This document shows positions 8,698-55,867 of a stretch of DNA of 64,000 bases, piece by piece. Position 1 is the first letter of the stretch; the number at the start of each line of letters is the position of its first letter. Under the pieces are notes generated by a model. The model saw only the letters and a list, made by a program, of their open reading frames with translations. It had not been told where the DNA came from and did not search any database. Source of the DNA: Sphyrna mokarran. Lineage: Eukaryota. Both the position numbers and the translations under genes were made by a program. Location of the stretch: assembly GCA_024679065.1 (NCBI GenBank), contig JAGIQG010000004.1, positions 99,944,001-100,008,000 on the forward strand. The letters run 5' to 3'.

Positions 8698-9385
8698 ATG
8701 ATGGTGTCATGCTAATGTCCGTCGGCTAGTAATCCACAAGCCTAAACTAATGTTCAGTGGATGAAGGTTCAAATCCTAACATGACAGCTGGTGGAATTTG
8801 AATTCAGTTTAAAGTTTATTTATTAGTGTCACAAGTAGGCTTACATTAACACTGCAATGAAGTTACTGCGAAAATCCCTGAGTTGCCACATTTCAGCGCC
8901 TATACAGGTGCACTGAAGGAAAATTTAGCATGGCCAACATACCAACTAGCATGTCTTTTGGACTGTGGGAGAAAACTGGAGCACCTGGAGGAAACCCACG
9001 CAAGTATAGGGAGAACACTCAATTCTGCAAATGATGACCCAAACCAGGAATTTAACATCTGGGGCTGTGAGGCAGCAATACTAACCGCTGGGCCACCGTG
9101 CCACACTATTCAAACAATAATTTGGAATTGAATGGCAAGTCTCAGAAAAAATGACCATGAAACCATTGTCAATTGTCAGAAAAACACACTTTGTTTACTA
9201 ATGTCCTTTATGGAAGATAATCTGCTGTCCATACCTGGTCTGGCTTACATGTGAATCCTGACCACAGCAATGTAACCTTAACTGCCCTTTGAAATGATGT
9301 GACAAGCCCCTCCAGTTCAAAGGCAATTACGGATGGGCACCAAATGCTAGCCTTGCCAGTGATGCCACAACCCATGAAAAAAATG
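8698..9385 (+). mobile_element. tRNA-headed SINE (type C), interrupted by a V-SINE at 8809-9104
   Basis: B-box GGTTCAAATCC near 8766; body ACCTGGTCTGGCTTACATGTGA; tail GGATGGGCACCAAATGCTAGCCTTGCCAGTGATGCC...AAAAAAA; matches 16701-17090. Confidence 0.8.
8809..9104 (-). mobile_element. V-SINE with alternative tail (type B)
   Basis: Reverse-complement V domain (GGAGCACCTGGAGGAAACCCACGCA); tail CAGTAACTTCATTGCAGTGTTAATGTAAGCCTACTTGTGACACTAATAATAAAC on the minus strand. Confidence 0.9.
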
Positions 9386-15492: not shown

Positions 15493-16017
15493 TTGTTGGA
15501 ATTTTCCAGCCATTCCCAACAATGAGATCTTCCAGTCCCATTGATGGCAACAACCTGCTGTGGCTTCCCTGGAGGTGAAGAGTGCAAACCAAAGTTTTCA
15601 AAAGCTTATTCATTAGTCACAAGTAGTCTTGCATTAACACTGCAATGAATTTACTATGAAAGTCCCCTAGTCACCACATTCCAGCACGTGTTTGGGTATA
15701 CTGAAGGAGAATATAGCATGGCCAGTGTTCCTAGCCTGCACATCTTTGGACTGTGAGGGGAAACTGGAACACCCGAAGAAACCCATGCAGACACAGGGAA
15801 CATACGTAAAGTCCACACAGACAGTGATCCAAGTTGGGAATTGAGCACAGATCCTTGGCACTGTGAAGCAGCAGAGCTAACCACTGCACCACTGTACCGC
15901 CCAAATGGGAACCCCATTGATAGTGGTGGGACCAGAAGATCATGCTAACGGAAAATGACAGGCCACCTGCACACTGCAATACACCACGCGGAGTAGAAGG
16001 GGTGTAAAATCCAACTC
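15493..16017. mobile_element. MITE interrupted by a type B V-SINE
   Basis: Ends TGTTGGAATTTTCC ... GTAAAATCCAACTC followed by TAT; host LINE sequence is continuous across it. Confidence 0.65.
15605..15902 (-). mobile_element. V-SINE type B
   Basis: TTAGTCACAAGTAG...CACTGCAATGAA tail; V core; head ...CACTGTACCGCCC. Confidence 0.9.
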
Positions 16018-24309: not shown

Positions 24310-24683
24310 GTAGAGGGATGACCTGACAGAGGTTTACAAGAATATGAGTGGCATGGACAGAACGGATAATCAGATGTTCTTTCCTTGGATAGAAAAGTCA
24401 AGTACTAGGCGACATAAAGTTTAAAGTGGGTAGGCAAAAGTTTAGAGGAAATGAGTGAGGCAAGTTTTTTTATACTGAGGGTGGTGAATGACTGGAACGT
24501 GCTGTCCAGGGAGGCGGTGGGACCAGGACACCATAGCAGCATTTAAGGGGCATCTAGACGTGAATAGGAGGGAATGGAAGGATGGACTCCTTAAGTGCAT
24601 ACAGTTTTAGTTAAAGCAGGCATCATGATCAGTACAGACTTGAAGGGCTGAAGGGCCTGTTCCTGTGTTGTACTGTTCTTTGT
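24310..24683 (+). mobile_element. CR1 LINE 3' end
   Basis: RG.LTEVYK-like start; tail GGGCTGAAGGGCCTGTTCCTGTGTTGTACTGTTCTTTGT. Confidence 0.85.
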
Positions 24684-25724
24684 AGGTATCAAGTTTCTAG
24701 TTGATTGATGAATTATTGAAAATTAACTGTTTGTGAGGGAACTAACATAATTCATTTCTGACTGTCCCGTTTACTTGTCTCTTGATTTTACAGGTTTATT
24801 TTGCTCCAATACTACATTATAAACATCTTCAATCCTGGATATTTCTGTGATCATCGTTAAAATTGGCAAACTAAGATACAAGAATATTTTATCTAAACGG
24901 CAAAAAAATCCTTCATTGTTTTAATGTGGGTTGTCCATATTCTTCAATAATCCAATCTATCTACAGATTGCAACCGAACTGAGCATCATTGTTAGAAGTA
25001 ACAAAGTTATAAATAAACAGATGGGCCACTGCAGGCTGGTTCACAGGTTCAAGACTCACTCACTCCGTGGTGGATTATTAAATACGACGCGCTACTACCA
25101 TCTTTGATGCGTGATTTAACAGAGACACTTGTGAGCCTCTTATCGATATTAAAAAGCACTCAGCCTTTAATTCCTTGGGTAGAACATTAAGGCTGATGAA
25201 TAACAAAGTCTCTTAGTGCAAATGACTTGTTAAATGAAAGAAACAGACTAAAAATGACAGCTATATCACATGATGACTGGTAATTTATCCTCATGTCCCT
25301 CCAGTCATTACTGTTTATATCTTTTAACTTGATTTAAGCTATAGTATACCACCAGAAACAATTTCATGTAATATTTGGGAGGATTTTGAACAGTTATACA
25401 GACACTGGATGCTATATACAAAACAATAATATGGCAACTGTAAAGTACGTGAACCAGATAATATCAAAACAGCTGTTAGCATCAATGAGTTACAGAATTA
25501 TTTTCCCTATAAGATAAGGGAAATTGGCAAGTCATTAAACATTGGTAGTATTCAATTTCTTCAGAGTGGAAACATAGCAGTAGAAAAACAGCATTAAAAA
25601 ATCAATCTTCATTTATATTCAAGATAAAAATGGAATTGAAAATCAAAATGAGCTTTGGATGGAAATAGTTGTGGCATTAAAAGGTTTTCAAATGTTCTGC
25701 TGCGACTGTCATTTACGGTACCAA

Positions 25725-28720: not shown

Positions 28721-29168
28721 GGGCCGGCACAGTGTTGGGGTGGTCAGCGCTGTTGCTTTACAGCTCCAGGGACCTGTGCTCAATTTCAACCTTGGGGACT
28801 GAGTGTGTGGAGTTTGCATGTTCTTAGTGTGTCTGTGTGGGTTTCCAGTTTCTGAGTGTTCCGCTTTCCTCCTTCAGCCCAGAAACATATGGGTTATGTC
28901 GATTGACCATGCTAATTCATCCTTCGAGTGGGATTTTCCAGCTCGATCCAAGACAGGAAAATGCCGCCCGAAGTCAATAGATCATTACATGGTCCGTATC
29001 TCTTCTGTTATGATTCCTGTAGCAGTCAGGATGAGAAAATTCTGCCCTTAATATCTGGGGGATTAACAGTGTAAATATGTGGGGTTACGGAGACAGGACC
29101 TGAGTGGATTTATTGTCAAGGTAGGATCGATAGGCAGAATGGTTTCCTGCAATGTAGGAATTCTATGA
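28721..29168 (+). mobile_element. V-SINE type A containing a MITE
   Basis: Head and V core 28721-28925, tail 29048-29168. Confidence 0.87.
28926..29047. mobile_element. 122-bp MITE inside V-SINE
   Basis: TIRs GAGTGGGATTTTCC / GAGAAAATTCTGCCC; flanks TTC / TTA; homologous to 43458-43583. Confidence 0.85.
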
Positions 29169-34552: not shown

Positions 34553-35305
34553 GAATAATAAATGTGTGGAGTATAGGGCTAATGGTAGGATTCTTAGTAG
34601 TCTTGATGAACAGAGGGATCTTGGTATGTATGTGCATAGATCCCTGAAAGTAGGCAGTCAAGTCGAGAAGGTTGTTAAAAAGGCATATGGAGTCTTAGCT
34701 TTTATTGGTAGGGGGATTGAATTTCGGAGCCGCAACGTCATGTTGCAACTGTACAAAACTCTAGTGCGGCCGCACTTGGAGTATTGTGTGCAGTTCTGGT
34801 CCCCGCATTATAAGAAAGATGTGGAGGCATTGGAGAGGGTACAGAGGAGGTTTACCAGGATGTTGCCTGGTATGGAGGGCAGGTCTTATGAAGAGAGGCT
34901 GAGGGATTTGAGGTTGTTTTCGTTAGAAAGGAGGCGGCTAAGAGGGGACCTAATCGAAACATATAAGATGATTAGAGGTTTAGATAGGGTGGACAGTGAT
35001 AGCCTTTTTCCTAGGATGGAGAAAGCTAGCACGAGGGGACACAGCTTTAAATTAAGGGGTGATAGTTATAGGACGGATATCAGAGGTAGGTTCTTTACCC
35101 AAAGGGTGGTTCGGGAGTGGAATGCCCTGCCTGCAGCAGTTGTAGATGCGCCAAGTTTGGTGGCGTTTAAGAGGTTAGTTGATAAGTATATGGAAGAGAA
35201 GGGAATGGTTTAGTTTGGAGGGGCATTGCTTTTTATATTGGTCGGCGCAACATCGAAGGCCGAAGGGCCTGTTCTGTGCTGTAATGTTCTATGTTCTACG
35301 TTTTC
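34553..35305 (+). mobile_element. Young 5'-truncated CR1 LINE
   Basis: Open 215-aa ORF2 C-terminus (LYKTLVRPHLEYCVQFWSP...FFTQRVVREWNALP); tail with GTTCTAT-type repeats; TGGCAG direct repeat at 34547-34552 and 35306-35311. Confidence 0.95.
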
Positions 35306-37828: not shown

Positions 37829-38092
37829 ATCATGGTTCCTCAATCAACAGCATTCTATCTGGTTGTACCATATCCCTGGCAGATGATTGAATAATTATTA
37901 AATTCATACATTCCACATGATACAAAAAAAAGTTTACTCCTTTCTATAGATAATTTTAACCTACAGAATTCAAGTCCACCTTTGACTAAGATTGATGTGT
38001 CTGTTCAGCTCTTGACTTCATACAAGGATGTACAATTAAAACTATGTCCAGTAGGTGGGTAGAATAAAGTGTCGATTACCAAGTTATCATAG

Positions 38093-38690
38093 ATCATAGA
38101 ATCCCTACAGTACAGAAGGAGGCCATTCAGCCCATTAAATCTGTACTGATCACAATCCAACCTAGGCTCTATTCCTTAGCCCTACGCATTTACTCTGCTA
38201 ATCCCTCTGACACTAGGGCCAATTTAGTATGGCCAATCAATCCGCCCCACACATCTTAAAGTAAATAAAGTTTATTGATTAGAGACAAGTAGGCTTATAT
38301 TAACACTGCAATTAAGTTACTGTGAAAATCCCCTAGTTGCCACACTCCAGCGCCTGTTTGAATACATGAGGGAGAATTTAACATGGCCAATGCACGTAAC
38401 CAGCACATTTTTCAGAGTGGGGAGGAAGCCAGAGCACCTGGAGGAAACCCACTCTGATACGAGAAGAACATGCAAACTCCACACAGACAATGACCCAGGC
38501 TGGGGAATCAATTCCAGGTCCCTGGTATAGTGAGCAGCAGTGCTAACCACTGTGCCATTATGCCATTCAATTGGACTTTGGGAGGAACCCATGCAGACAT
38601 GAGCAGAATGTACAAACTCCATCCAGACAGTGACCCCCCCAGGGCCAGAATTGAACTTGGGACCCTGGCACTGTGAGGCAGCTGTGCATA
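38093..38690 (-). mobile_element. V-SINE type A with a type B V-SINE nested at ~38257-38565
   Basis: A tail 38093-38256 ends CACATCTT, a complete B element follows, A resumes TTGGACTTTGGGAGG. Confidence 0.87.
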
Positions 38691-39574
38691 ATTTCATGAC
38701 ACCTCTTTCTCAAAACATTCTGACATACTCAAAAGCAAAATTATCATTTTATAACTTCCAACTATCACGGACTCACATCCAAAATTGCACACAACCCAAA
38801 AATATATGAGATACAGATTTTGAATTTTTTAGAAATTGTTCTTTAAAACTTGCAATGATTCATTGTACTGCAAAAAGAATTTCTAACTAGAGATAATGGA
38901 TTTATTCAAAACTGGAGATAAATTCTAGTTAAAGGCAGTGCAATCTTTTTACTGGTGTCCTTATTGATTTATTGATGTGCATGTTTCTCTCCAATAATGA
39001 ATAGTAGAGATCAGCTCACTTCGTGAATTTTAATTTAAAAATTTATTCTCACATTTCTTCTCTTGCAGTTTCCAGCATAAACTTATTTTTCTGTTCTGTA
39101 GTAAAATAATTAAAATTGTTTGAGGAGTGAAACTTTTTGGAATCATTCTATTGTTAGCCACTGTGATAATTAGTTGAGAGAAATTTCTATAAAATAATCG
39201 AGGAATGAAAAGCTTCTAATTCAATTAAGTGGTTTTGAAGAAAGTACGGTTTAAGTGTTTTTTTTTAACATCAGCAGAAGAAGAATGAATTGCTTCTTAC
39301 AGGACACATTATTCTCCACTGTCAATCTCCAATAATTATAGATAGCATTGTTAAAAAAAAAGCTTGATATTTCCTTCAGTGCAGTATAGGTAGAGCAATG
39401 TAGGTATGGAATGATAAACATAACAGCGACCGCAAAGCTGAAAGTGTGCGACGCAATAGTCATACTAGTTCACGGGTAATGGACTCACATGAAGCATATT
39501 GCACAATTTAATAAAGAACAGTACTGATTCTACCAGTGAGCACCACAGCCTCAGCTGTGATGTTTTTAAAATTT

Positions 39575-40935: not shown

Positions 40936-41082
40936 ATGCAAGTGCAAAACAAAGAGACAGGTTTATTACATATTTCAGCATATTATCTATAACATCAGTT
41001 TGCAAACTGATACAATCTTAACTGCAGAAGACAGACGCCAGACCTCCCACTTCATTCTCGAGCAACATTCAACTTCTCAAAT

Positions 41083-41934
41083 TTTACCAGGATGCTGCCT
41101 GGTATGGAAGGACTGTCTTATGAGGAACGATTAAATAGACTGGGGTTGTTTTCCCTTGAAAGACGTCGGCTTAGAGGGGATCTCATAGAGGTGTATACGA
41201 TTATAAGGGGTATAGATAGAGTAAATGGAGGTAAACTTTTTCCACCTTCAGAAATGGATAGGACGAGGGGTCATGGCCTTAGGGTGAGGGGGGCTATGTA
41301 TAAGACGAATATTAGAGGGCAGTTTTTCACACAAAGGGTAGTGGGAGTGTGGAATGCACTGCCGAGTAAGGTGGTGGGAGCAGGCACGCTAGGGCTGTTT
41401 AAGGGTCTCTTGGACAGCCACATGAGCGTTATGCAGATAGAGGGATATAGTAGGACTGTTTAACTATGGCTTTTTTTTCCACAGTTAATTCGGTCCATAC
41501 TTGACCAACAAGGATCATGCATTCGGCAGGTGGTGCGAGGACAGCTCTTGGATGTTGATTCACGGGTTGCCTGGTGCTTCATGTCGTAAATGAGTGCTTT
41601 ATCTGGACCATCTGAAGGGCACCATGACAGCTCAGTGACTATCGCTGTAGCTGTGCAGACACTTGGAATTGGCCGGTGTCTGCGGGAGTTTGCGCGTTCT
41701 CCCCGTGGTTGCGTGGGTTTTCTCCGGGCGCTCTGGTTTCCTCCCACATCCCAAAAAATTCGCTCTTAGGCTGATTGGGAAACAAATTGTCCCTACATTG
41801 AGACTCTTCCATATTAGGAATAATCTAAAATTAGAATAGGATAATGGAATTGTTACTATATAGTTATGACGGCGGCGCGGGCTCGTTGGGCCGAAGGGCC
41901 TGTTTCCCGTGCTGTGTTGCTCTTAAAAAAAAAA
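41083..41934 (+). mobile_element. Young CR1 LINE 3' end with extended 3' UTR containing a V-SINE-derived segment
   Basis: Open ORF2 end (stop 41461-41463), V-domain at ~41677-41752, CR1-type terminal GGGCCGAAGGGCCTGTTTCCCGTGCTGT, A10 run, AAATT at both junctions. Confidence 0.9.
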
Positions 41935-43332
41935 TTCTGGTTCATCACTTCTTTATCATTCATAGACACTATTATATGATGGTTTTATGACATCTCTATG
42001 TACTTGAATACTGCTTAGATTAGCTTGTTAGTGTTACCTTAACACTTCAGTATTCTATATATTCATTCAACAAAATAGAAGATATGCATGACAGCAAATT
42101 TAGTTAATTGCACTTTTGTTGTATCACAAGAGATGTAATGTTGAAAAATATTTATGAACTTGGAATTAATTTTAGGCAACGGGGATTGCAATTGTTGCTG
42201 ACTAAAATAAAAAAAAGATTTCTTTTTGAGCTTCATGGTCATGGTCTTCTTTTTTCCTTAACTCAACAAAGGGACATTCATGCTGTGCTACCTCATTTTA
42301 GCTGCCTGTTCTGGATTTCAACAATTGCTCAGCTTGCAACGCATGGATCCTCATCACTATTTAATGACTTAAAACAATTTTGCTCAAGTGCCTCAATTTT
42401 GTTTGCACCAGAATAGTTCAAATATTATTTTTCCCCATTGGCCTTTGAGGCTCAGAAGTGAAGTAAGCATGGCAGTGCCAGCCGTTTTGCAGTGGCTCTA
42501 AATAAAAACTTGCCTGCATGCTCTCAGTTTTGACTGGCATTATGTTTACAAGTGTGAATATAAAGATATGACCCAATGGCATTGTCTGGGGACTGGCAGT
42601 AAATTGGCTTGTGAACTTGGAATATCAGAGTGTAACATTATTGCTGGAAATGAGAGATAAAGCTGCTTCTTCAATACATTAGTAACTTCTATCCAGCAAT
42701 CATCAAAATAAAAATACATTATTGAATTAATTAAGAATTTGAAAAACAAAATGACACAAATGAAGATATGGAAAATTATGTTTGAATAACTGTATTCAAA
42801 CTGTATGCTTTATAGTACTTTCTGTGTTAAGTTTTATTACTTTCATTTTAGCCCACCTGAACAGAATGTACTCTGTCTCAAGTTACAAATGCTATTCCCC
42901 ATGATGGCTTTTCCTCACCCCATACAGTGCTGATGTATCTCTTTATGTCACCTGGTGGCTATTGTCAATTATATTGTCATGGCGTGCAAGATAAAGTATT
43001 AGGCTTGATACTATTAATCGGCGTAGTAGCAAAATATTGCAGCTTTTCCTATCCCCATCTCAGCAGTACACAATCTGTTTGTACTAATGCTCTTAGCTTC
43101 AACTTGAAAAGCATAGCTACAATTGGCTCCTTCCTAATCCACCTTGCATCGAGGGACAACATCTTCACTCATCCGTTTGTTGGCATTCTCCTTAATTCAG
43201 CTGCAAGAGCTTTGGTAGAACGTAATTACTAGTCAGTCTCCAAAGGACACTTGGATGATTGCCTGCAATGGATTTGAGAATGAAAACAACACTTCCTCCA
43301 GGGTTTCATACAGATTCTCAGAATGAAGTATT

Positions 43333-43780
43333 ATCATAGAATCCCTAAAATGCAGAAGGAGACTATTCGATCCATCGAGCCTGCAACAACAACATTCCCA
43401 TCCAGGCCCTAATCCTGTAACCCCATGTATGTACCCTCCTAATCCCCCTGACGCTAAGGGGTGAATTTTCCTGTTCCGCCACCACAGGAATTGTAGCAGG
43501 TGAGGGGCAGACCATGGAAAGATCCGTTGACCTCGGGCAGGATTTTCCAGTTTTGGAGTGCAGGCAGCTGGAAAATCCCACCCAAAGTGTCAATTTAGCA
43601 TGGCCAATTAATTCTAACCTTCATACCTTTGGAGTGTGGAAAGAAACGGGAGCACCTGGAGGAAACCCACGCAGACACAAGAAAAATGTGCAAACTCCAC
43701 ACATTCAGCAGAGACCGGAATTGAACCTGTATCCTTGGCACTGTGCGGCAGCAATACCAGCCATTGTGCCACTGTGCCTC
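43333..43780 (-). mobile_element. V-SINE type A containing a MITE
   Basis: Tail 43333-43457, V core and head 43584-43780. Confidence 0.88.
43458..43583. mobile_element. 126-bp MITE inside V-SINE
   Basis: TAA|GGGGTGAATTTTCC ... GGAAAATCCCACCC|AAA. Confidence 0.87.
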
Positions 43781-46700
43781 AATGCAGCCTTGTATTTTGT
43801 TTGCTTTTAAAATGAATTCGACATAAACCTTCACCAAACCTTTCTGGTATTGAAAGTTGTTTTATTAAGGTGGGGTAGGGTGGTGAGAGGGAGAGGTACA
43901 ATGAGGTTGAAATGTTTTCCGATTCTATCCATCAATCATCTCAAATTTCCCATCTGTGCTCCAAGATGTTTTAATAAGCTGATTTATAAAGAGAGAAACC
44001 TATAATATTTCCATTCTGCAGAGAGAAGTGCTAAAAATAGCTGTCAATTAGGATAGCTGGAAAATTCAACAGCAAATTAAAATCCTTCTGAAAATGTAAA
44101 CGATGCATATATAATCTAATACATACTGGCAGTTCTGCACTGAGAATTTCAACTGTGATTTAGAAATAGGAGTTGCTAATTATTTACAACGAGAAATGAA
44201 AGGCAAATAGACACTGTGTATTTATAATTTTTATCACTTCCCTCAAGCTTTCACAATGTACAGTTTAGCACTAAGATTCAGAAGAGTGCCAACATTGATT
44301 TGGATGATTTTCAGTTTTTGAAATATTCTCTGTCAATTTGCAGTAAATAATTTGGAGCTGCAATAGCTCCTGGAAATTTCCCCCCACTTGCACTGTTTTA
44401 TTAGATCCTAATCGTGTTTTGAGGAAAAAGACACTCTTAGGCTCCAGCTAGTCTAATTGTATCATCTATATCTCTACTGATTGTTGTTCCTGGCTTGTGA
44501 ATGCATGAACTTCTGCAGGTATTAATAGGGGTGTTCTGGACTACATATAGATCAAAGCCCATAGATCTTCCAGATAGAATCTAACAGCACCCTGTCATGG
44601 GTGACAGATAAAGCACAGATTAAAACTTACATTGGTTTGTATGAGCAATATACTTAATATATTAATGGCTTAACCAAGGGGTAGATGAATTAACTTCTAT
44701 AGCGATTGTAATCACTACTCTATGATTCATACAGACTAGTGCAAAACATAAGCACGAACGATGAGTTTGATCAATCAACAACTTTGCTTATATAACCGGA
44801 CAGACACAAAGTGCAAGCCAAGTTGTAAAAAGGATGGCATAAAAATCGTTATGCTAAGATTGTTGATATACTTATTGGCATAAAAATTGTGAAATGCTTC
44901 AAGCTTCAATATTAATTTCAAAGAACATCAGATGGTCAAAGGAATACACATCTGTACAATTTACTTTCTCACTCTGGCTGTGATTTGGGGCAGTCACCTG
45001 ACCCAAGTTGGCCAAGAATTTCCCAAGTTGTTACTGCAAAGTATGCTCAAACAAGATAACATATTTCATTTCATAATAATTTTGCTATCTTGCTTGTTTA
45101 AAAGCTATTGACAAATGACTTTTGCAGAATCACTACAGGTTTTCAAACCTAATAATAATTTGATTCAATGGTGAAGTAGTACAAAGAAGGCTAAAGCTGT
45201 TAGGACTTTTATTCAGAGAGCTCTTACAGTAATTATAGTCAATTTAAACTTGTTTTTACTTGGATAAAAGCATATTAAAAATGTGAACATGGCATGCACT
45301 CAGTGCTGCCACATATAAGCAAAATCCTGGGACTCTCTTTGGTGACAAATACATGCCCATTGGGGTAATCTTACCATTCTCCTTCTTGTCCCTCTCACCC
45401 CACCCAATGCTGACCTTGTGGGCTCTGCTAGAAGGACAACTTTCACTGCTCTCTACCTCTCCCTCGAGAAAGTCTTGTGGATAGCGACTTGTCATCCAAT
45501 GAGTGCACAATGGATATTTGTGTTGCCATGGCCTTGACTAAAAACTAGCTATAGAATGATGCCATCTTTTCCCTAAAGAATGTCTCTCCACCTGACCATG
45601 TCATTCACCATTTGTTATCATGGTGACGAAATGGCTCTTACCATTAAATCAAATCATATCCTGCCCTCTTATACCTCTGAATCTTTCTTCTCTTTTGAGT
45701 AATTTATCTTGTTTCATGACTCTTAGCTCGTGGTTAAATCCTTATTCAGTAGCCCTCATGCAAATAATTTTCTCACAGATATCTGTTTTCCTCCCTCAAT
45801 CTCTGCACCAAGTTACCTCTTGCCTTCTGGAATTTCAAATTCCATTTCAATGCCCTTTATTCTGCAAAGTTCACTGCTATCTTATTTTCCCCTTTGTTTA
45901 ATCCTCCACGTAAATTCTCCAAGCCATTTTCACAGCCACTCCTTTTGTCACTTCCCGCACACATCACCCTTTCTCTCCGAATCCCGCTTACCTCTGTGTT
46001 TCCCCTTTGAAAGAAGCTCTTTCCCAATTCACTATACTTTTCACTTCCCAATTGTCTAGCCTTTGGTCCATTGTTGACCTTGACATTTCTGAAGCTATTA
46101 CTTGTTTAACCACACTTCACCTTTGCCTTGTGTTTCCATTTAAACTATTGCTTTCTATCACCCTGATAGCTTGCTTGCTGCAGTCCTTGATTGCATTTCC
46201 TTACATTCAAGGAATGCAGGGTTGAAAGAATATGATAGAAAACTGGTTTGGCCAATAACCACCAGATCTGAACGAAACGTATAAGAATATATTTGACTTC
46301 TGTCCCTTTATGCCAGAACCGTTCACTATTTCAGAATCATCCTGGAATGCAAAAAATACCCCTGACTTCTTCTCTCTACAGTAAACAATCATCTGCATCT
46401 CCACTAAACTTCCTCTGCAGGTCCCTCATACTTAGTCCTAAACTCGCATTGTTCCCTATGTTCTCTCCTATCACTTCCTCACAGAGCTCATAATTCCACA
46501 GAGTCCACCTCCTAATTCCTCAATTCCATTGCCACTGCTGAACACCCAACTTTTCCCCAGTGGACTCTGATACAGTGGATTCCAGCATTCAAGTGAATAA
46601 ATATTCCCAACTTGTTTTTTTGTTGCTCTTAGTTATTTCTTGTGATAAAACTCTTTCCTTTCCTGTCTCTTCATTGTGTGCTTATGCGTATTTTTGAGAC

Positions 46701-48704: not shown

Positions 48705-49022
48705 GTGTGGCATGGTGGCTCAGTGTTCAGCACTGCTGTCTTACAGCAAGAGGGACCTGGGGCCGATTCCCAACTTGGATCACTGTCAATGTGAAGTCTG
48801 CATGTTCTCCCTGTATTTGCATTGGTTTCTTCCAGATGCTCGGGTCTTCTCTCATAGGCTGAAAGATATGCTGGTTAGGTGAATTGGCCATGCTAAATTC
48901 TCCTTCAGTGTTCCTGAACAGGCGCTGGAGTATGGTGACTCGAGGATTTTCACGGTAATTTCATTGCAGTGTTAATGTAAGTCTACTTATGACTAATAAA
49001 TAAATTTAAACTTTTAAACTTT
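48705..49022 (+). mobile_element. V-SINE type B
   Basis: Head, V core, tail TTCATTGCAGTGTTAATGTAAGTCTACTTATGACTAATAAATAAA. Confidence 0.9.
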
Positions 49023-54227: not shown

Positions 54228-55665
54228 ATCCTAAATTGGAAAATAACCAATATTGTTCCTTTATTCAAGAAGGATGGCAAGAATAATCACGGTAATTACA
54301 GGCCGGTGAGCCTTACACCAGTGGTAGGGAAGTTATTGGGGAGGATTCTTTGAGACATGATTTACTCCCACTTGGAAATAAGTAGACATATTAGCGAGAG
54401 GCAACATGATTTTGTTAGAAGGAGGTCATGTCTCACTAATTTACTGAATTTCTCAAGGAAGTGATGGAGATGGTTGAGGGTAGGGCAGTGGATGTTGACT
54501 ATATGAACTTCAGTATGTCCTTTGACAAGGTCCCTCATGGCAGAAAAGTGCAGAAGATGAAGTCTCATGGGATCAGAAGTGATCTGGCAAGGTGATACAG
54601 AATGGCTCAGTAATAGAAGACAGAGGATAGCAGTAGGAGAGAGTGCCTTTCTGAATGGAAGGCTGTGACAACTGGCATTCCTCAGGGATCAGTGTTGTGA
54701 CCTTTGCTGTTTGTAATATATAAATGATTTGGAGGAAAATGTAATTGGTTTGATTAGTAAGTTTGCAAATGACACTATATTGGTGGATTTACAGGTAGCG
54801 ATGAGGACCGTTAGAGGATACAGCAGGATGTAGATCAGTTGGAGACTTGGGTGGAGAGATGGCAGATAGAATGAGGTAATGCATCTTGGAAGGTCTAACA
54901 CAGATAGCAAAGATACAGTAAATGGCAGAACCCCTAAGAGTGTTGATAGGCAGGGGGAGTTAGGTGTACAGGTACACAGATCACTGAAAGTGGCAAGTAG
55001 GTGGAGAAGATAGTCAAGAAGACATACAATATTCCAGGACATGCTTGATTTCATTGGCTGGGGCATTGAGTTTAAAAATTGGTAAATCATGTTGCAGCTT
55101 TATAGAATCTTAGTTAGGCTGCCCTTTGTATATAATGTTCAATTCTGGTCGCCACACTATCCGAAGGATTTGGAGGCTTTGGAGAGGTTACAGAAAAGAT
55201 TTACCAGGATGTTGCCTGGTATGAAGGGTATTAGCTATAAGGAGAGGTTGGAGAAATTTGGTTTGTTCTCACTGGAATGATGGCGGTTGAGCATTGACCT
55301 GGTAGGAGTCTACAAGATTATGAGGGGCACGGACAGATGGATAGTCAGAAGATTTTTCCCAAGGTGGAAGAGTCAATAACTTGGCAGCATAGGTTTAAGG
55401 TGCGAGGGGCAAGGTTTAAAGGAGATGTACGAGGCATGTTTTTAACACAGAGGGTGGTGGGTACCTGGAACTCACTGCTGGGGGAAGTAGTGATGGCAGA
55501 TATGATAGTGACTTTTAAGGAGCGTCATGATAAATACGTGAATAGAATGGGAATAGAGGGATATTATCCCTGGAAGGGTAGGAGGTTTTAGTTCAGTCAG
55601 GCAGGATGGTCAGTGCAGGCTTGGAGGGCTGAAGAGTCTGTTCGTGTAATTTTCTTTGTTTTTTG
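54228..55665 (+). mobile_element. CR1 LINE ORF2 RT to 3' end (~1.4 kb, frameshifted)
   Basis: NIVPLFKK..NYRPVSLT, RSCLTNL, IPQGSV, MLQLYRILVR..QFWSPH, FLTQRVVGTWNSL; CR1 tail near 55620-55660. Confidence 0.92.
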
Positions 55666-55867
55666 TAATCGTGGCTCTCCAGCTTAAGTTAACACCAGAC
55701 TGAAATAGCAAACAACCATTTATTTTAACACCCCACACAGATCTCTTTTCAAAGATTTAAAAAGAAATTGTTTCAAAACCTTAACAATTGTTTTTTACAA
55801 CTCTTGTGACAGTTTCAGTGAGTTCATACACATTTTACATACACTAATGTCCATTTTAAAAAAAAAT

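What the first reader, a model, noticed from the sequence alone, without database searches (positions are those of the whole stretch)
41083..41934. Young CR1 LINE whose 3' UTR carries a promoter-crippled V-SINE (LINE that may have captured its own SINE parasite)
Seen: after an intact ORF2 end (stop 41463) the UTR runs ~470 bp, against ~90 bp in the CR1 at 34553-35305. At 41617 begins a diverged tRNA-like head (GGGCACCATGACAGCTCAGTGAC...) lacking the B-box. It is followed by a clear V domain (GTCTGCGGGAGTTTGCGCGTTCTCCCCGTGGTTGCGTGGGTTTTCTCCGGGCGCTCTGGTTTCCTCCCAC), then a single CR1-type terminal motif and A10. The V segment differs strongly from the free V-SINEs here yet keeps its CpGs, as does the LINE part, and I see no internal TSD. 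Established: V-SINE tails derive from partner LINEs. Inference: a CR1 lineage acquired its 3' end from a V-SINE and has since retrotransposed as one unit, reversing the usual LINE-to-SINE flow. Alternatively it reflects a LINE source of the V domain.
Basis: partly seen in the sequence, partly recalled or inferred. Interest (0 to 1): 0.8.

Follow-up and report, generated by a model that had tools for sequence, protein, structure and literature searches.

The report
Shark LINE carrying captured SINE tail
A jumping gene in a shark-like genome appears to end in a captured copy of one of its own small parasitic elements, which has lost its promoter but kept its folded RNA shape, so it may offer a way to test what this ancient, unexplained sequence does.

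Summary
The anatomy is confirmed. A 5'-truncated CR1 ORF2, open to TAA at 41463, lacks its own tail. It is followed by a 153-bp spacer of unknown origin, a V-SINE head remnant (A box eroded, B box deleted), a V domain, one CR1-type terminal stem-loop and A10. A 5-bp candidate TSD frames the whole unit (chance about 4%); none lies inside it.

New here: the SINE-derived part is not a decayed copy. It keeps its CpGs. Its head differs from the resident V-SINE consensus at 15/33 positions, its V core at 10/69. All 9 pairs of the head hairpin survive (172/50,000 matched simulations), and the joint fold beats 2,500/2,500 simulations. This points to long replication under RNA-structure selection without Pol III, as expected for a passenger in a LINE 3' UTR. 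A database protein 91% identical shares the unusual ORF2 end (EGYSRTV).

The decisive test, a second copy with the spacer-V junction, could not be made: there is none in the window and no shark DNA collection was available. Verdict: probably a CR1 subfamily with a V-SINE-derived 3' end (0.65); a one-off chimera remains possible.

The parts
41079..41083 (+). Left copy of candidate 5-bp target-site duplication (AAATT; last T shared with LINE homology)
   Evidence: a match this long arises at 4.1% of random sites
41083..41463 (+). 5'-truncated CR1 ORF2 3' end, 126 open codons, ending EGYSRTV-stop
41460..41484 (+). 3' splice-site-like motif (branch-like TTAAC, T-rich tract, CAG) overlapping the ORF2 stop; function unknown
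   Evidence: 2 such motifs on both strands of the window
41464..41616 (+). Spacer of unknown origin; no native CR1 tail; 41492-41609 folds as a closed domain
   Evidence: no homology; z -2.8; 1 of 200 shuffles as good; 5 CpG, reached by 3% of windows
41617..41676 (+). V-SINE tRNA-derived head remnant: A box eroded, B-box arm deleted; carries 5' strand of helix P1 (41619-26), hairpin P2 (41627-54) and 5' strand of P3
41677..41796 (+). V domain (core 41680-41748, weaker homology to 41796); 3' strands of P3 and P1, hairpins P4 and P5
41797..41867 (+). AT-rich mid-tail with no significant match to other tails in the window
   Evidence: best: 10 of 300 shuffles as good, among 9 comparisons
41868..41924 (+). 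Single CR1-type terminal stem-loop, closer to the window's CR1 LINE tails than to HE1-type SINE tails
   Evidence: scores 29-45 vs 23-27; z -2.4
41925..41934 (+). A10 tail
41932..41936 (+). Right copy of candidate TSD (AAATT, overlapping the A tail)

Best explanation
This is one 5'-truncated insertion of a CR1 subfamily whose 3' UTR was replaced long ago by a spacer plus a whole V-SINE. Shown: the parts, their order, the single terminus, the loss of the Pol III boxes. Inferred: (1) an ancestral CR1 gained the SINE as its 3' end, by reverse-transcriptase template switch or by read-through into a downstream SINE followed by loss of the old tail. The SINE's tail was CR1-type, so ORF2p could still recognise it. 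(2) Transcribed from then on as part of the LINE's Pol II RNA, the SINE no longer needed its A and B boxes and lost them. (3) The head+V RNA fold (helix P1 closing P2, P3 and P4, then P5) was kept by paired substitutions, so it does something in cis for the RNA, most likely stabilising the RNP or presenting the tail to ORF2p (about 0.45 for this step). (4) This copy arose in one target-primed reverse transcription event, primed at the A tail and ended at 41083.
For: No native tail after the stop; one terminal stem-loop. Candidate outer TSD, none internal. CpG o/e 0.52, 0.61, 0.42, 0.91, 1.20 along the five segments, against 0.06-0.40 in 15 resident SINEs and 0.31/0.16 in the flanks. Uneven divergence: head 15/33 vs V core 10/69, Fisher p 0.001. 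Hairpin P2 is predicted independently in the resident consensus and in the element; 9/9 pairs are kept with 2 double and 1 single change, and composition-matched simulations keep all 9 in 172/50,000. Two-sequence fold energy -41.3 vs null -28.9 +/- 2.9, 0/2,500 as good. The element pairs at 34/34 named positions. By eye, the frog V-SINE Racla forms P1 and P2 with yet other pairs. P0121 (91% identical over the whole query) ends in the same EGYSRTV, and P0122 (82%) in GYSRPY, so the non-canonical ORF2 end is a subfamily trait.
Against: Only one copy seen; the spacer-V junction was not found elsewhere. P0121 vouches only for the bases up to the stop codon. The TSD is short (chance 4%). The bare count of compensatory pairs is not significant (5 vs null mean 2.9; 200/1,500). 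Pair counts on a 10-row alignment do not clearly beat shuffles (48, 86, 317, 11 and 39 of 500 for the five measures). The covariation could predate capture, in a separate SINE lineage. The head's own CpG o/e (0.42, 2 sites) is not distinct from the resident SINEs. The resident consensus comes from decayed copies and is uncertain at CpG sites.
Confidence: 0.65

Rival explanations
1. One-off chimera: reverse transcription began on the RNA of a separate, rare V-SINE-derived element and switched to a CR1 RNA at this locus only; or a V element inserted next to a 3'-truncated CR1.
For: Single copy in the window. V-SINE-related hits cover about 6.1 kb of 64 kb, so adjacency is common. Single-copy CR1/SINE composite insertions are reported in coelacanth (PMC4255032, passages).
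Against: A free SINE template should have working A/B boxes; this one has neither, yet is CpG-rich. No free copy of this V type among 19 head-bearing V-SINEs in the window. No TSD or tail remnant at the internal boundaries.
Confidence: 0.2
2. Spacer+head+V+tail is the 3' part of a separate, longer non-autonomous element with its own non-tRNA promoter, fused here or in a small subfamily to CR1 ORF2.
For: The spacer is structured (z -2.8), CpG-rich and begins with a splice-acceptor-like motif. SINEs with added 5' heads are known (PMC4824008 and PMC4758252, passages).
Against: No Rfam match (5S, 7SL, snRNA, tRNA) in the spacer even at E 10. The acceptor-like motif overlaps the ORF2 stop, whose preceding codons are shared with P0121.
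Confidence: 0.1
3. The V domain is native to this LINE's 3' UTR, and V-SINEs derive from such a LINE.
For: LINE 5' UTRs have supplied SINE bodies in RTE and Vingi (PMC5786205, main text read). The terminal motif is LINE-like.
Against: The tRNA-derived head remnant lies in register 5' of V, which marks a SINE donor. V domains occur in cnidarians, molluscs and insects with varied LINE tails. The three other CR1 3' ends in the window, and L001, have short V-less tails.
Confidence: 0.05

Closest known systems
Elasmobranch CR1 LINEs (HER1) and their partner V-SINE HE1 (PMC3747384 table)
   Same: CR1-type ORF2 C-terminus; CR1-type terminal stem-loop; head and V domain homologous to the resident HE1-like SINEs.
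   Different: Here LINE and SINE are one unit; the UTR is 471 bp instead of about 90; A and B boxes are lost; the end is A10, whereas the resident copies end in TTCTATG-type repeats.
MER6/MER6A (PMC6887750, parts 1-2 of 5 read)
   Same: A V-SINE captured inside another transposable element and spread without Pol III transcription.
   Different: MER6 is a non-autonomous Mariner DNA element and lacks the tRNA head; here the host is a retrotransposon, the head remnant is kept, and the SINE supplies the functional 3' terminus.
Ingi-3_AC and RTE-1_DAn (PMC5786205)
   Same: SINE-like or tRNA-like sequence inside a LINE; SINE-to-LINE recombination is suggested for Ingi-3_AC.
   Different: Ingi-3_AC's segment is in the 5' UTR and is RTE-like; neither is a whole V-SINE forming a CR1 3' end.
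Coelacanth CR1/SINE composite insertion 26 (PMC4255032, passages)
   Same: CR1 fragment followed by SINE sequence.
   Different: That one is single-copy and nested, with separate TSDs for its parts; here no internal TSD is seen.

Membership tests
CR1 clade LINE | ORF2 homologous to CR1 ORF2 | tested here: met
   C-terminal 125 aa match RT-bearing CR1-type proteins of sharks, rays and birds. The RT domain itself is truncated away, so no RT tree was made.
CR1 clade LINE | 3' terminal stem-loop shared with CR1 tails | tested here: met
   0 of 300 shuffles reach the score against 3 of 4 CR1 tails, 3 of 300 against the fourth.
CR1 clade LINE | Terminal short tandem repeat rather than poly(A) | tested here: not met
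   A10. PMC13343379 calls poly-A unique to Zenon among CR1-group elements (passage). One copy only, and three of the A's may belong to the TSD.
CR1 clade LINE | Full-length autonomous element (ORF1, EN, RT) | not testable with these tools
   Copy is 5'-truncated; no source genome available.
V-SINE (HE1-like) | V conserved domain | tested here: met
   E 7e-20; 59/69 identical in the core.
V-SINE (HE1-like) | tRNA-derived head with working internal Pol III promoter (A and B boxes) | tested here: not met
   head homology 24/44, A box 2 mismatches, B-box arm deleted. Box patterns are recalled consensus motifs.
V-SINE (HE1-like) | Free-standing interspersed repeat with own boundaries, at least 100 copies (SINEBase definition) | tested here: inconclusive
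   No free copy and no own TSD in 64 kb; genome-wide count not possible.
Composite LINE-SINE family | Same ORF2-spacer-V junction at several loci | tested here: inconclusive
   ORF2 end shared with P0121; spacer-V junction not recovered; no eukaryotic DNA collection to search.
Composite LINE-SINE family | One TSD around the whole unit | tested here: inconclusive
   5-bp AAATT, chance 4.1%; empty site not available.

The most novel reading that the evidence does not exclude
An autonomous shark CR1 family replaced its 3' UTR with a V-SINE and has kept the SINE's multi-helix head+V RNA fold under selection after losing the Pol III promoter. The V 'highly conserved domain' would then be a cis-acting RNA structure that aids retrotransposition, useful enough for a LINE to adopt it from its own parasite, and testable in a single coding element.
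Probability: 0.45. Interest if true: 0.8.

Novelty: new variant of a known kind. Interest (0 to 1): 0.62.

Why it matters
Why SINE central domains stay conserved for hundreds of millions of years is open. PMC5804259 (passage) argues against a role in SINE-LINE exchange because no such domain had been found in LINE sequences. A CR1 family carrying a V domain would be a counter-example and would reverse the usual LINE-to-SINE flow of 3' ends. Because this lineage lost the promoter but kept the fold, it separates the transcription role of the head from the RNA-structure role of head+V. It supplies a concrete structural model (P1-P5) to mutate and rescue. It would also mean that shark repeat annotation counts some LINE 3' ends as free SINEs. 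If the junction proves unique, the locus is a minor chimera, though the structural comparison would stand.

Tried and rejected
Second copy in the window: none by blastn or by a 24-nt diagnostic pattern with 3 mismatches. Junction copies via predicted proteins: the minus-strand frame over spacer+head+V gave 0 of 1 candidates; 11 hits among 1.84 billion representatives, 8 with best stretch within residues 2-55 (V and head), the other 3 at 17-59, 37-66 and 3-32, none spanning the spacer; nothing usable in the ESM Atlas. The exact ORF2 fragment is not in the collection. Prokaryotic collections, searched for stray eukaryotic contigs: V pattern 0 hits; ORF2 query 1 locus of 545 candidate stretches, with an ordinary short CR1 tail; plasmids and phages no match. 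Spacer as a 5S/7SL/snRNA/tRNA head: rejected (four chance matches, none in the spacer). Spacer as a decayed CR1 or SINE tail: rejected, 0 of 7 comparisons above shuffles. Empty site as part of another repeat: no support. The T4 run in the V core as a sign of lost Pol III use: rejected, insect V-SINEs have it too. The first null for the fold test did not preserve base composition and was replaced. Compensatory-pair counts alone were not significant. Supplements: PMC13343379 holds none of three motifs (its consensus sequences are in an outside repository); PMC4824008 none in 2 files, 1 file unsearched; PMC3531059 unavailable. The original V-SINE paper (PMC155270) is not held. Repbase, Dfam and viral or metagenome contigs stayed unchecked.

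Full report
Setting. The window is eukaryotic, about 39% GC and CpG-poor (o/e 0.23). It holds 19 V-SINE copies with a recognisable head in two tail types, and three other CR1 3' ends (24319-24684, 34553-35305, about 54300-55667). Among the closest named ORF2 relatives are shark and ray proteins. I infer an elasmobranch genome; the names HE1 and HER1 come from the table in PMC3747384 (passages).

Observation. LINE homology starts at 41083. The frame is open to TAA 41461-63. DNA homology to two of four ordinary CR1 ends runs to about 41449 and stops. The next 153 bp match nothing in the window, no CR1 or SINE tail (0 of 7 comparisons above shuffles) and no Rfam family. At 41617 a head remnant aligns without gaps to the resident V-SINE head (24/44; 12.3 bits against a background maximum of 9.6 over 109,580 positions). 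Its A box reads CAGCTCAGTGA (2 mismatches to a recalled consensus), and a 19-20 nt gap removes the B-box arm. The V domain follows. The only terminal stem-loop is at 41868-41918; it resembles the CR1 LINE tails (scores 29-45) more than the HE1-type SINE tails (23-27). A10 ends the unit. AAATT occurs at both outer junctions (4.1% by chance); nothing comparable frames 41617.

Age. The 842 bp hold 31 CpGs; the best other window has 22, the mean 7.3. Segment o/e values are 0.52, 0.61, 0.42, 0.91 and 1.20, against 0.06-0.40 for 15 resident SINE regions. The unit is therefore much younger than the resident SINEs and about as young as the CR1 at 34553 (0.62). The spacer alone (5 CpG) is matched by 3% of windows; the head alone is uninformative.

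The SINE part is not a decayed copy. Divergence from the resident consensus is 15/33 in the head but 10/69 in the V core (Fisher p 0.001), and 6 of those 10 are CpGs present in the element. Most resident copies show no such contrast. Head+V folds with z -4.1. Hairpin P2 is predicted in the same register in the resident consensus alone and in the element alone. All 9 pairs survive, with G-C to A-U at 41629/41652, A-U to U-A at 41632/41649 and one wobble. Placing the same substitutions at random keeps all 9 in 172 of 50,000 trials; the two-sequence fold energy was matched in 0 of 2,500 and the single-sequence energy in 1 of 2,500. Further double changes fall in long-range helix P1, between the head's 5' end and the V core (41621/41709, 41622/41708), and in P3 (41655/41683). 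After loss of the B-box arm, P3 is a perfect 8-bp helix in the element. By eye, the frog V-SINE Racla (supplement of PMC5804259) forms P1 (GGCACAG with CTGTGCC) and P2 with other pairs again. Against this: the number of compensatory pairs alone is not significant (5 vs 2.9; 200 of 1,500); counts on an alignment of the element with 9 of the 19 resident copies barely exceed shuffles; and the consensus is uncertain at CpG sites.

Reading. A young, CpG-rich copy with a dead Pol III promoter and structure-conserving divergence implies a source lineage that replicated for a long time without Pol III (inference). The simplest carrier is the LINE RNA in which it lies. CR1 is listed among the stringent LINEs, and for zebrafish L2 the 3' stem-loop is required (PMC4176376, passages); the only such stem-loop here is behind the V domain. 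Independent support reaches the ORF2 end: of 64 near-length hits, P0121 is 91% identical and ends in the same EGYSRTV, P0122 82% with GYSRPY, while the other full-length rows aligned end differently (9 of the 64 hits aligned). So this is a distinct CR1 subfamily whose non-canonical sequence begins before the stop. Nothing I could search reached the spacer-V junction. These searches have little power for non-coding shark DNA, so the blank is weak evidence either way.

Mechanism. Capture by template switch, or read-through into a downstream SINE followed by loss of the old tail; the two cannot be told apart here. The acceptor-like motif at the start of the spacer (2 in the whole window) hints at host intron-exon sequence or at a spliced short RNA and is unexplained. 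Promoter decay followed, with retention of the fold. I think the fold most likely helps the RNA in cis (stability, or hand-over of the tail to ORF2p); this is untested. The covariation may partly predate capture.

Literature. PMC5804259 (passages and supplement) states that no conserved SINE domain had been found in LINEs. PMC5786205 (main text read) screened Repbase SINEs against LINEs and reports only RTE and Vingi 5' parts in SINE bodies, plus Ingi-3_AC as a possible SINE-to-LINE case. PMC6887750 (parts 1-2 of 5) describes a V-SINE captured in the DNA transposon MER6. PMC4255032 (passages) describes a single-copy nested CR1/SINE insertion. Passages only were seen for PMC5499810, PMC4824008, PMC13343379, PMC7245038, PMC11481361, PMC4758252, PMC5753468 and PMC3531059. 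Nine searches (one search listed 40 of 46) showed no title or abstract start describing a CR1 with a V-SINE 3' UTR or a V-domain fold.

Verdict. Observation confirmed and extended. Composite CR1 subfamily 0.65, one-off chimera 0.2, separate longer non-autonomous element 0.1, LINE origin of V 0.05. It works like a CR1; the V part fails SINE membership on the promoter test. New variant of a known kind; interest 0.62, rising to about 0.8 if the junction is multi-copy.

Noticed in passing
window 28722-29168 (+) and 43333-43782 (-): Two HE1-type V-SINE copies share a roughly 130-bp insert with inverted-repeat-like ends at the same point just after the V domain (74% identical over 97 bp). Either a SINE subfamily carrying a MITE-like passenger or a targeted insertion.
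   Followed up: partly
window 41460-41484 (+): Textbook 3' splice-site-like motif overlapping the ORF2 stop; only one other in the window, at 39042.
   Followed up: partly
window 41492-41609 (+): The spacer folds into a closed multi-stem domain (z -2.8) with no Rfam match.
   Followed up: partly
window, e.g. 8800-9106 (-), 15594-15902 (-), 48705-49018 (+): A second resident V-SINE type shares head and V domain with the HE1 type but has a different, non-CR1 tail ending in a TAATAAA-type motif; partner LINE not identified.
   Followed up: no
window 38084-38712 (-): Three V-SINE pieces abut: one tail type appears inserted within a copy of the other.
   Followed up: no
window 34553-35305 (+): A second young CR1 3' fragment with an open 224-codon frame and CpG o/e 0.62, 72/117 aa identical to the element's ORF2, so two distinct CR1 lineages were recently active.
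   Followed up: partly
L001 1-547: A 547-bp contig in a bacterial assembly is a vertebrate-type CR1 3' end, probably contamination; several CR1-type proteins are likewise labelled as bacterial.
   Followed up: no
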